Below are positions 15,209 through 16,735 of a stretch of 64,000 nucleotides of DNA, in pieces. The translations under genes and the position numbers were made by a program. The notes beneath the pieces were generated by a model. That model made no database searches, had not been told where the DNA came from, and saw nothing but the letters and a program-made list of their open reading frames with translations. Where the stretch lies: the NCBI GenBank assembly GCA_009914755.4, contig CP086569.2:800001-864000 (forward strand). Reading direction: 5' to 3'. The DNA is from the human T2T-CHM13v2.0 reference genome, Homo sapiens. Every line of letters begins with the position of its first letter. Within the stretch, counting starts at the first letter, position 1.

Positions 15209-16735
15209 TTTTTTTTTTTTTTTTTTTTTTTTTTGAGGCAGAGTCTCGCTCTGTCACCCAGGCTGGAGTGCAGTGGCATGATCTTGACTCACTGCAACTT
15301 CTGCCTCCCGGGTTGAAGCGATTCTCCTGCCTCAGCCTCCTGAGTAGCTGGGATTACAGGCACCCGCCACCACACCTGGCTTATTTTGGTATTTTTAGTA
15401 GACAGGGGGTTTCGTCATTTTGGCCAGGCTGGTATCGAACTACTGACCTCGTGATCTGCCCGCCTCAGCCTCCCAAATTGCTGGGATTACAGGCATGAGC
15501 CACCGCGCCCAGCCTGCTTTTTTTCTTTTCTTTTCTTCTTTTTGAGACAGAGTCTCGCTCTGTCACCCAGGCTGGAGTGCAGTGGCATGATCTTGACTCA
15601 CTGCAACTTCTGCCTCCCGGGTTGAAGCGATTCTCCTGCCTCAGCCTCCTGAGTAGCTGGGATTACAGGCACCCGCCACCACACCTGGCTTATTTTGGTA
15701 TTTTTAGTAGACAGGGGGTTTCGTCATTTTGGCCAGGCTGGTATCGAACTACTGACCTCGTGATCTGCCCGCCTCAGCCTCCCAAATTGCTGGGATTACA
15801 GGCATGAGCCACCGCGCCCAGCCTGCTTTTTTTCTTTTCTTTTCTTCTTTTTGAGACAGAGTCTCGCTCTGTCACCCAGGCTGGAGTGCAGTGGCATGAT
15901 CTTGACTCACTGCAACTTCTGCCTCCCAGGTTCAAATGATTATCCTGCCTCAGCCTCCTGAGTAGCTGGGATTACAGGCACCTGCCACCACACCTGGCTT
16001 ATTTTGGTATTTTTAGTAGAGAGGACGTTTCTTCATTTTGGCCAGGCTGGTATCGAACTACTGACCTCATGATCTGCCCACCTCAGCCTCCCAAAGTGCT
16101 GCGATTACAGGCGTGAGCCACTACGCCCAGCCTGCTTTTTTATTTTCTTTTTTTCTTTTTGAGGCAGAGTCTCGCTCTGTCACCCAGGCTGGAGTGCAGT
16201 GGCATGATCTTGACTCACTGCAACTTCTGCCTCCCAGGTTCAAATGATTCTCCTGCCTCAGCCTCCTGAGTAGCTGGGATTACAAGCACCTGCCACCACA
16301 CCTGGCTTATTTTGGTATTTTTGGTAGACAGGACGTTTCTTCATTTTGGCCAGGCTGGTATTGAACTACTGACCTCATGATCTGCCCGCCTCAGCCTCCC
16401 AAAGTGCTGAGATTACAGAAGTGAGCCACTGCACCCAGATATTTTTTTTTTTTTGGGACAGAGTCTTGCTCTGTCGCCCAGGCTGGAGTGCAGAGGCACA
16501 ATCTCGGCTCACTGCAACCTCCGCCTCCCGGGTTCAAGCGATCCTCCTGCCTCAGCCTCCAGAGTAGCTGGGATTACAGACACCTGCCACCATGGCTGAC
16601 TAATCTTTGCATTATTAGTATACACAGGGTTTCGTCATTTTGGCCAGGCTGGTCTCAAACTCCTGACCTCAGGCAATCTGCCCACCTCGGCCTCCCAAAG
16701 TCCTGGGATTACAGGCGTGAGCCACCTCGCCCGGC
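15209..16735 (-). mobile_element. Head-to-tail tandem array of five Alu elements, period about 305-309 bp
   Basis: Five consecutive antisense Alus, each starting with a T-rich linker; units 1 and 2 (15209-15517 and 15518-15826) appear identical, including the linker (the identical 76-aa ORFs 15268..15498 and 15577..15807 cover 231 bp). Confidence 0.85.

What the first reader, a model, noticed from the sequence alone, without database searches (positions are those of the whole stretch)
15209..16735. Five Alus in perfect head-to-tail tandem; the first two units appear identical
Alus normally insert independently. Here five antisense Alus follow each other with a 305-309-bp period, each preceded by the same T-rich linker ('ctgctttttttcttttcttttcttctttttgagacag'). 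Units 1 and 2 look base-identical over the whole 309-bp period (the ORF track gives identical 76-aa translations over 231 bp at 15268 and 15577), and units 3-5 are progressively more diverged. This is the signature of unequal crossing-over amplifying an Alu plus linker as a satellite-like unit, and copy number is probably polymorphic.
Basis: seen in the sequence. Interest (0 to 1): 0.5.

Follow-up and report, generated by a model that had tools for sequence, protein, structure and literature searches.

The report
Alu duplicated in place four times
One old Alu element together with its T-rich tail has been copied in place into a four-unit tandem array that sits next to a fifth, unrelated Alu; this is an ordinary, well-known way for mobile elements to seed small tandem repeats, and the newest copy is a clean recombinant of its two neighbours.

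Summary
The tandem array is real: TRF gives period 309, 5.0 copies, score 2370. But it is not five copies of one unit.

- **Units 1-4 (15209-16438)** are in-place DNA duplicates of a single, already mutated AluS-type element plus its tail. They are 92.8-99.6% identical. The maximum among 703 control Alu pairs in the same window is 91.0%. They share 8-12 rare substitutions (control maximum 3) and a common 'TGC + T/C-rich' linker.
- **Unit 5 (16442-16736)** is an independent Alu of another subtype. It has its own T13 tail, a different junction, 294-bp spacing, and background-level identity (82-86%).
- **Unit 2** is a perfect single-switch chimera. It equals unit 3 on its left and unit 1 on its right, with no private change, and 380 bp repeat exactly. 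That is the signature of one recent out-of-register homologous exchange or duplication.
- **The linker claim** holds only for three junctions. Unit 1 is preceded by pure T26.
- **Copy-number polymorphism** is plausible but could not be tested. No other copy of the locus was found in the accessible collections.

Transposon-derived tandem repeats and tandem Alu pairs are well documented, so this is a new instance of a known kind. Interest is low.

The parts
15209..15234 (-). Tail of unit 1: uninterrupted T26 (an A26 tail on the Alu's own strand), directly after unique flank ...AAAATGGC
   Evidence: It is the same length (26 nt) as the T/C linker tails of units 2 and 3 but has no interruptions.
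15235..15514 (-). Unit 1 Alu body (280 bp). AluS-type, lacking the 2-bp CT at consensus position 65-66. 10 CpGs retained.
   Evidence: blastn 89.0% to the AluSx consensus over positions 1-282; alignment; CpG count.
15515..15543 (-). Linker 1/2: TGC + TTTTTTTCTTTTCTTTTCTTCTTTTT
   Evidence: Identical to linker 2/3.
15544..15823 (-). Unit 2 Alu body. It is a chimera: its left end (with its tail) equals unit 3 and the rest equals unit 1.
   Evidence: Of the 22 sites that distinguish units 1 and 3, unit 2 matches unit 3 at the first 5 (15525-15547) and unit 1 at the other 17 (15619-15814). It has no private change.
15548..15618 (.). Interval that contains the switch point of the latest duplication. 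This 71-bp block is identical in units 1, 2 and 3.
   Evidence: By my reading of the difference list, it is the longest uninterrupted block of identity between units 1 and 3.
15824..15852 (-). Linker 2/3: TGC + TTTTTTTCTTTTCTTTTCTTCTTTTT
15853..16132 (-). Unit 3 Alu body (280 bp, 6 CpGs)
   Evidence: 93.6-93.9% identical to units 1 and 2, and 95.7% to unit 4.
16133..16160 (-). Linker 3/4: TGC + TTTTTTATTTTCTTTTTTTCTTTTT (25-nt tail). Its interruptions align with those of the other linkers.
16161..16438 (-). Unit 4 Alu body. It is the most decayed unit (3 CpGs), and its 5' end reads CCCAG instead of CCCAGCC.
16439..16454 (-). Junction 4/5: ATA + T13. The T13 is unit 5's own tail. This junction is unlike the TGC + T/C linkers.
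16455..16736 (-). Unit 5: an independent AluS (Sx-like, with the CT at 65-66). It is not a copy of the duplicated unit.
   Evidence: 82.1-86.3% identical to units 1-4, against a background of 83.8 +/- 2.4%. Many private differences. Spacing of 294 bp.
16629..16641 (-). Rare motif AAAATGACGAAAC (consensus AACATGGTGAAAC) in unit 5. The same motif occurs in units 1 and 2 (15409-15421, 15718-15730) and, as ...GAAG..., in units 3 and 4. It is a candidate short gene-conversion patch between neighbours.
   Evidence: the motif occurs only in the array among the window's Alus (about 70 by my estimate); 4 shared rare states between unit 5 and units 1/2, against a maximum of 3 in 703 control pairs.
16810..17044 (+). 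5'-truncated sense Alu, 73 bp to the right of unit 5. It forms a closely spaced inverted Alu pair with unit 5. This is context, not part of the array.
   Evidence: 161-nt arms, 82% complementary; the predicted single-stranded DNA hairpin has an energy of -201.5 kcal/mol, z = -19.

Best explanation
**History proposed**
1. Two Alus of different subtypes came to lie head to tail by retrotransposition (a 'tandem insertion'). One is unit 5. The other is the ancestor of units 1-4.
2. That ancestor accumulated many private substitutions. Then it was duplicated in place at the DNA level, together with its 26-nt tail and 3 extra bases (TGC), as a 309-bp unit.
3. Order of events: a first split into the unit 1 lineage and the unit 3/4 lineage, then a split of units 3 and 4, and very recently the creation of unit 2.
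4. Unit 2 arose from one out-of-register homologous exchange between unit 1 and unit 3. The switch point lies inside the 71-bp identical block 15548-15618. This added exactly one 309-bp period.
5. The array has no evident function. It is a neutral, low-copy, transposon-derived tandem repeat in a window unusually dense in tandem repeats.

**Shown:** common descent of units 1-4 by DNA duplication, independence of unit 5, and the chimeric structure of unit 2.

**Inferred:**
- the enzymology (meiotic unequal crossover, sister-chromatid exchange or slippage);
- how the very first duplication started, possibly by exchange between the T-rich tracts flanking the ancestral Alu;
- the dates. These are my rough clock-based estimates: about 10-30 My for the old splits, and less than about 2-8 My for unit 2.
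For: - **Array exists.** TRF period 309 x 5.0 copies, score 2370.
- **Units 1-4 are closer than any control pair.** Their pairwise identity is 92.8-99.6%. The 703 pairs among 38 other full-length Alus of the same window have mean 83.8%, sd 2.4 and maximum 91.0%.
- **Units 1-4 share rare states.** Each pair shares 8-12 states seen in at most 1 of 38 other Alus; controls have mean 0.19 and maximum 3. Examples are consensus positions 75, 83, 112, 129, 135, 218 and 230.
- **Shared linkers.** Linkers 1/2 and 2/3 are identical, and linker 3/4 has interruptions at matching positions. Retrotransposed copies would carry fresh homopolymer tails and different flanks.
- **Unit 2 is a chimera.** At the 22 sites that distinguish units 1 and 3 it shows a 5 + 17 pattern with one switch and no private change. 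The exact repeat is 380 bp.
- **Unit 5 is separate.** It has the CT at 65-66, its own T13 tail, a different junction, 294-bp spacing and background identity.
- **Context.** 22.4% of the window lies in tandem repeats of period >= 20 bp, so local tandem duplication is common here.
- **Literature.**
  - Transposon-derived minisatellites are frequent and expand in place (PMC3389668).
  - Two-Alu tandems with a period of about 310 bp are common (PMC3592446).
  - Transposon dimers can seed arrays (PMC5932611).
Against: - No target-site duplications could be identified for the array or for unit 5. The order of the two original insertions is therefore not established.
- The origin of the first duplication, and of the TGC in the linker, is also not established. 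Unit 4 is followed by ATA rather than TGC.
- The unit tree is not clock-like. I count 3 changes on the unit 1 lineage against 14-17 on the unit 3/4 lineages, read (Tajima test on these counts p = 0.008 and 0.002). The history may be more complex than three simple duplications.
- Unit 1's tail is a pure T26, which is unusual for an old Alu.
- No second copy of the locus (allele or orthologue) was available, so neither the recency nor the direction of the last event is independently verified.
Confidence: 0.85

Rival explanations
1. All five Alus are independent retrotransposition events. Each inserted into or next to the A-tail of its neighbour, as in serial 'tandem insertion' (El-Sawy & Deininger 2005).
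For: Alus prefer T-rich or A-tail targets, and two-Alu tandems are common genome-wide (PMC3592446; El-Sawy & Deininger as cited in 10.64898/2026.01.20.700717). This window holds other head-to-tail Alu pairs at 73-86% match: 28495-29078, 39975-40586 and 59400-59989. This explanation does fit the unit 4 / unit 5 junction.
Against: - Units 1-4 share 8-12 rare substitutions and exceed the identity of every control pair.
- They share the TGC linker and tail interruptions.
- Unit 2 is a site-by-site chimera of its neighbours.
- The adjacent control pairs tested share 0-2 rare states.
Confidence: 0.02
2. The array is genuine, but its steps, including the newest, were made by replication slippage or template switching, or by microhomology-mediated tandem duplication, rather than by homologous unequal crossing-over.
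For: - A tandem duplication of any 309-bp segment that starts inside 15239-15309 would give exactly the same sequence as an unequal crossover. The sequence alone cannot discriminate.
- The first duplication had no second homologous Alu of the same lineage to pair with. It therefore needed either the flanking T-rich tracts or a non-homologous mechanism.
- The window is full of short-period tandem duplications, including 27-bp, 76-bp and 248-bp repeats within 3 kb of the array.
Against: - The added length is exactly one period.
- The switch maps to the longest perfect block between units 1 and 3 (71 bp). Homology-driven exchange predicts this, although a random breakpoint would fall there with probability of about 0.23.
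Confidence: 0.3
3. The identical unit 1 / unit 2 pair is an assembly artefact (a false duplication), and the true array has three related units plus unit 5.
For: Exact tandem duplicates inside Alu-rich sequence can be mis-assembled, and no read-level data are available here.
Against: - Unit 2 is not a plain copy of unit 1. It carries unit 3's tail and the A at 15547, forming a coherent recombinant.
- A 309-bp period is easily spanned by single reads in modern assemblies.
Confidence: 0.05

Closest known systems
Transposon-derived minisatellites / VNTRs (Jurka & Gentles 2006; Ahmed & Liang 2012, PMC3389668)
   Same: Alu sequence repeated head to tail by in-place duplication. The units are more similar to one another than to other genomic copies. 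Copy number is low, and expansion is stepwise over evolutionary time.
   Different: In PMC3389668 the example described in detail repeats a 52-bp Alu fragment, and mean copy number is about 2.3. Here the unit is a whole Alu plus its tail (309 bp) in four copies. Those authors' filter (>= 95% identity between units) would pass only the unit 1/2 pair (99.6%) and the unit 3/4 pair (95.7%) among the Alu bodies.
Tandem Alu insertions / two-Alu tandems (El-Sawy & Deininger 2005; Gluncic & Paar 2012, PMC3592446)
   Same: Head-to-tail Alus separated only by an A-tail, with a period of about 300-310 bp. The unit 4 / unit 5 junction fits this class.
   Different: Those are independent retrotranspositions. 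Units 1-4 here are DNA-level copies of one insertion.
Transposon dimers expanding into satellite arrays (McGurk & Barbash 2018, PMC5932611)
   Same: The model matches: a tandem pair of elements provides a substrate for out-of-register recombination and array growth.
   Different: That work is in Drosophila, with arrays of up to about 16 or many more copies. Here the array is only four units, and the expanding unit is not a hybrid of the two original elements.
Alu-Alu non-allelic homologous recombination (duplications and deletions)
   Same: A chimeric Alu with a single switch point inside a block of perfect identity (established knowledge, recalled from memory).
   Different: Classical cases duplicate or delete the kilobases between two dispersed Alus. 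Here the partners are adjacent units, so the product is only one extra Alu-length period.

Membership tests
Alu SINE (AluS group) | About 280-bp dimeric body that aligns end to end with the Alu consensus | tested here: met
   All five units align to consensus positions 1-282 (unit 4 to 5-282, unit 5 to 1-280) at 85-89% identity. A consensus built from 38 other Alus of the window gives the same picture.
Alu SINE (AluS group) | 3' A-rich tail (T-rich on the + strand here) | tested here: met
   The tails are T26, two 26-nt T/C tails, a 25-nt T/C/A tail, and T13.
Alu SINE (AluS group) | Flanking target-site duplications | tested here: not met
   No shared non-poly-T k-mer longer than 5-6 nt was found between the relevant flanks. 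This is expected for old elements, and the T-run boundary makes the comparison ambiguous, so it does not argue against Alu identity.
In-place transposon-derived tandem repeat (VNTR-type) | Units closer to each other than to other copies of the element, with shared private substitutions | tested here: met
   Units 1-4: 92.8-99.6% identity against a control maximum of 91.0%, and 8-12 shared rare states against a control maximum of 3. The test used only the other Alus of this window, not the whole genome. Unit 5 fails this test.
In-place transposon-derived tandem repeat (VNTR-type) | The same junction sequence between successive units | tested here: met
   Three junctions share TGC plus a T/C tail, and two of them are identical. 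The junction 4/5 and the left edge differ.
In-place transposon-derived tandem repeat (VNTR-type) | Copy number varies between individuals or species | not testable with these tools
   No other copy of the locus was found by three exact-protein look-ups or four DNA-pattern scans of viral, metagenome and prokaryote collections. No primate genome collection is available.
Product of unequal homologous exchange (non-allelic homologous recombination) | A chimeric unit with a single switch between parental units, and a gain of exactly one period | tested here: met
   Unit 2 equals unit 3 at 5 sites and then unit 1 at 17 sites, with no private site. The period is exactly 309 bp. The pattern is also compatible with slippage-type duplication.
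Tandem Alu insertion (independent retrotranspositions) | Neighbours differ in subtype, diagnostic positions and tail | tested here: met
   Met for unit 5 against units 1-4: the CT indel at 65-66, many private differences, and its own T13 tail. Not met among units 1-4.
Satellite DNA | Long, homogenised array of tens to thousands of units | tested here: not met
   There are only four related units. Three lineages are 4-7% diverged, and nothing suggests homogenisation apart from the latest duplication.

The most novel reading that the evidence does not exclude
The locus is an actively unstable, copy-number-polymorphic Alu-unit VNTR caught at the earliest stage of satellite birth. Its instability could be promoted by the surrounding VNTR-dense, possibly subtelomeric, context and by the closely spaced inverted Alu pair 73 bp to its right. 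The slow-evolving, CpG-retaining unit 1/2 lineage would then reflect a distinct epigenetic state, for example hypomethylation, at one edge of the array.
Probability: 0.15. Interest if true: 0.35.

Novelty: new member of a known kind. Interest (0 to 1): 0.18.

Why it matters
Its value is mainly as a tidy worked example. One locus shows three known processes side by side: tandem retrotransposition (unit 5 beside the array), in-place duplication of a whole Alu plus its tail, and a recombinant unit whose switch point can be mapped to 71 bp.

If copy number varies in populations, it would be a 309-bp-step structural variant that short-read pipelines mis-call. It would also add or remove antisense-Alu polypyrimidine/AG sites if it lies in a transcribed intron.

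It does not change current understanding of Alu biology or of how satellites originate.

Tried and rejected
- **Looking for other alleles or orthologues.**
  - Exact-protein look-ups returned nothing for three ORFs: U5 plus right flank (16488-16763), left flank (14604-14954), and the 76-aa Alu ORF.
  - A 28-nt left-flank pattern found nothing in viral or metagenome contigs.
  - An array-specific 22-mer (GGCTGGTATCGAACTACTGACC) found nothing in metagenome or prokaryote genome contigs.
  - Polymorphism and orthology could therefore not be tested.
- **Rfam scan of the window.** No family reached its gathering threshold, so this gave no handle on the genomic locus.
- **Long ORFs of the window.** They are translations of repeats (Alu, L1, minisatellites). 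No convincing exon was seen, so the gene context is unknown.
- **Target-site duplication search.** Nothing was found for the array, for unit 5, or for the unit 4/5 junction.
- **Hypothesis: the first duplication arose by unequal exchange between the ancestral Alu and unit 5.** Rejected, because no unit carries unit 5's tail or 3' end.
- **Hypothesis: gene conversion from unit 5 explains unit 1's consensus-like states.** Rejected. Unit 1 keeps array-specific states next to those sites, and at position 64 it lacks unit 5's adjacent differences.
- **Species assignment from young Alu markers.** No Yb8 or Ya5 diagnostic strings were found, only two AluY-type cores at 41296 and 41710. All that can be said is that the source is a catarrhine primate.

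Full report
**What is there.** Bases 15207-16736 form a head-to-tail array. Tandem Repeats Finder reports period 309, 5.0 copies, 91% matches and score 2370. On the + strand each unit reads T-rich tail, then reverse-complemented Alu body. The CAGAGTCT anchors are spaced 309, 309, 308 and 294 bp apart. The sequence is primate and very Alu-rich; I estimate about 70 Alus in the 64 kb from the hits. No Rfam family reached its threshold.

- The identity of units 1 and 2 is real. The longest exact period-309 run is 380 bp, 15239-15618 = 15548-15927, and the two 76-aa ORFs are identical.
- The 'same linker before each unit' claim is only partly true.
  - Units 2 and 3 are preceded by the identical TGC + TTTTTTTCTTTTCTTTTCTTCTTTTT.
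  - Unit 4 is preceded by a diverged form, TGC + TTTTTTATTTTCTTTTTTTCTTTTT.
  - Unit 1 is preceded by unique flank (…AAAATGGC) and a pure T26.
  - Unit 5 is preceded by ATA + T13.

**Four copies of one element, plus one stranger.** I aligned the five units with 38 other full-length Alus from the same window as an internal control.

| Comparison | Identity | Shared rare states (seen in <= 1 of 38 other Alus) |
|---|---|---|
| 703 control pairs | 83.8 +/- 2.4%, max 91.0% | mean 0.19, max 3 |
| Pairs among units 1-4 | 92.8-99.6% | 8-12 |
| Unit 5 vs units 1-4 | 82.1-86.3% | 2-4 |
| Six adjacent same-orientation control pairs | 82.6-89.3% | 0-2 |

- Examples of the rare states shared by units 1-4 are consensus positions 75, 83, 112, 129, 135, 218 and 230.
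- With the shared TGC linker and the aligned tail interruptions, this shows that units 1-4 descend from one already mutated Alu by DNA-level duplication. They are not repeated retrotranspositions.
- Unit 5 has the CT dinucleotide at positions 65-66 that units 1-4 lack, many private differences, its own T13 tail and a different junction.
- Unit 5 is therefore an independent Alu lying head to tail with the array. That is the common 'tandem insertion' arrangement (El-Sawy & Deininger 2005, as cited in 10.64898/2026.01.20.700717). Two-Alu tandems give a genome-wide peak near 310 bp (PMC3592446).

**The newest unit is a clean recombinant.** In + strand register, 22 sites distinguish the periods of unit 1 and unit 3.
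- Unit 2 matches unit 3 at the first five sites. Four are tail interruptions at 15525-15538, and the fifth is the A at 15547.
- Unit 2 matches unit 1 at the remaining seventeen sites (15619-15814).
- No site is private to unit 2.
- The single switch therefore lies in 15548-15618. By my reading of the difference list, this 71-bp block is the longest stretch of perfect identity between units 1 and 3.

This is what one out-of-register homologous exchange between units 1 and 3 of a three-unit array predicts: flank-X-[Y-left|X-right]-Y. A slippage-type duplication of any 309-bp segment beginning in the corresponding block gives the same sequence, so the enzymology remains an inference. Zero differences across 380 compared bases put a 95% upper bound on the event's age of about 2-8 My, for rates of 2 to 0.5 x 10^-9 per site per year. 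Copy-number polymorphism is thus plausible but unproven.

**Older history.**
- Informative sites give the tree ((U1,U2),(U3,U4)). Nine derived states are shared by units 3 and 4, three are specific to the unit 1/2 lineage, and 5 and 8 are private to units 3 and 4 respectively (my counts).
- Body divergences are 6-7% (U1/2 vs U3/4) and 4.3% (U3 vs U4). At typical Alu rates these suggest duplications on the order of 10-30 My ago. That is an inference, not a measurement.
- The tree is not clock-like. I count 3 changes on the unit 1 lineage against 14-17 on the others (from; Tajima test on these counts p = 0.008 and 0.002).
- Retained CpG counts are 10, 10, 6 and 3 in units 1-4.
- I have no tested explanation for this asymmetry, or for unit 1's uninterrupted T26 tail.

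**How the first duplication started is unresolved.**
- No target-site duplications were found.
- The linker's GC + T-run matches the left edge of the array (GCTTTTTT).
- The ancestral Alu was flanked on both sides by T-rich tracts: its own tail on one side and unit 5's tail on the other. Exchange or slippage between those tracts is a reasonable but unproven origin.
- An origin by exchange between the ancestor and unit 5 is rejected, because no unit carries unit 5's tail or 3' end.

**A trace of exchange with unit 5.** Units 1 and 2 and unit 5 share the rare motif AAAATGACGAAAC, where the consensus reads AACATGGTGAAAC. Among all the Alus in the window it occurs only in the array. Units 1 and 2 each share four rare states with unit 5, above the maximum of the 703 control pairs. 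A short gene-conversion patch between neighbours is the simplest reading. This is an inference.

**Context.**
- 22.4% of the window lies in tandem repeats of period >= 20 bp, and 30.2% lies in any TRF array.
- These include many minisatellites and, within 3 kb of the array, 27-bp, 76-bp and 248-bp duplications.
- A second Alu-based array lies at 53124-53831 (135-bp period x 5.2). In it the Alu left monomer has been amplified.
- Local tandem duplication is evidently frequent here. VNTR density of this kind is typical of subtelomeric regions (PMC7608644), but the genomic location is unknown.
- Unit 5 and a 5'-truncated sense Alu at 16810-17044 form an inverted pair with a spacer of only 73 bp. 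Folded as single-stranded DNA they give a long imperfect hairpin (-201.5 kcal/mol, z = -19).
- From memory, closely spaced inverted Alus are known to be recombinogenic. Whether this pair contributed to the array's instability is speculation.

**Comparison with what is known.**
- Transposon-derived tandem repeats are well documented. At least 23% of human minisatellites and satellites derive from transposons. Alu-derived ones average about 2.3 units and expand in place (PMC3389668, which also cites Jurka & Gentles 2006).
- Transposon dimers as seeds for arrays are described in Drosophila (PMC5932611).
- Arrays that contain Alus are catalogued in T2T-CHM13 (10.1101/2021.07.12.451456).
- Alu-length motifs appear as peaks in primate T2T tandem-repeat catalogues (10.64898/2026.01.20.700717).

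This locus is another instance of that kind. It is mildly unusual in that the unit is a whole Alu plus its tail in four copies, and in that the last step is so cleanly readable.

**What could not be done.** No primate genome or population resource was reachable. Three exact-protein look-ups and four DNA-pattern scans found no other copy. Polymorphism, orthology and assembly correctness therefore remain untested.

**Verdict.**
- The mechanism class is supported by the chimeric unit.
- The polymorphism claim is untested.
- This is an ordinary feature of a known kind, and interest is low.

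Noticed in passing
window 53104-53920 (+): A second Alu-based tandem array with period 135 bp x 5.2 copies at 85% match. It consists of about five copies of an Alu left monomer (plus the A-rich linker) followed by one right arm. This looks like out-of-register exchange between the two halves of an Alu.
   Followed up: partly
window 16457-17044: Unit 5 (antisense) and a 5'-truncated sense Alu (16810-17044) form an inverted pair only 73 bp apart. The predicted single-stranded DNA hairpin has an energy of -201.5 kcal/mol (z = -19). 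Closely spaced inverted Alus are reported to be unstable, so this pair may contribute to local instability.
   Followed up: partly
whole window, e.g. 1112-2019, 24766-26646, 26936-27271, 29505-30226, 35185-35904, 44440-44672, 7335-10031, 50632-51657: The density of tandem repeats is exceptional: 22.4% of the window in repeats of period >= 20 bp and 30.2% in any TRF array. Examples are a 48-bp x 39.5 minisatellite, a 71-bp x 12.8 repeat, a 52/101-bp x 14 GC-rich repeat, and kilobase-long tetranucleotide arrays. The pattern looks subtelomeric, but the location is unknown.
   Followed up: partly
window 15235-16438 (units 1-4): There is a marked rate asymmetry within the array. The unit 1/2 lineage has 3 changes since the first duplication and keeps 10 CpGs. 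Units 3 and 4 have 14-17 changes and keep 6 and 3 CpGs (Tajima p = 0.008 and 0.002). Unit 1 also keeps an uninterrupted T26 tail. Unexplained.
   Followed up: partly
window 15409-15421, 15718-15730, 16629-16641 (- strand): The rare motif AAAATGACGAAAC is shared by units 1 and 2 and by the otherwise unrelated unit 5, and is absent from all other Alus in the window. It is a candidate short gene-conversion tract between neighbouring Alus.
   Followed up: partly
window 12955-13455, 14767-14828, 17665-17892: Three further young tandem duplications lie within 3 kb of the Alu array: 248 bp x 2.0 at 94% match, 27 bp x 2.3 at 94%, and 76 bp x 3.0 at 98%.
   Followed up: no
window 28495-29078, 39975-40586, 59400-59989, 33448-33834: Other head-to-tail Alu pairs, with periods of 298-317 bp at 73-86% match, and a 191-bp x 2 partial Alu duplication. 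The pairs tested share 0-2 rare states, so they look like independent insertions. They served as controls.
   Followed up: partly
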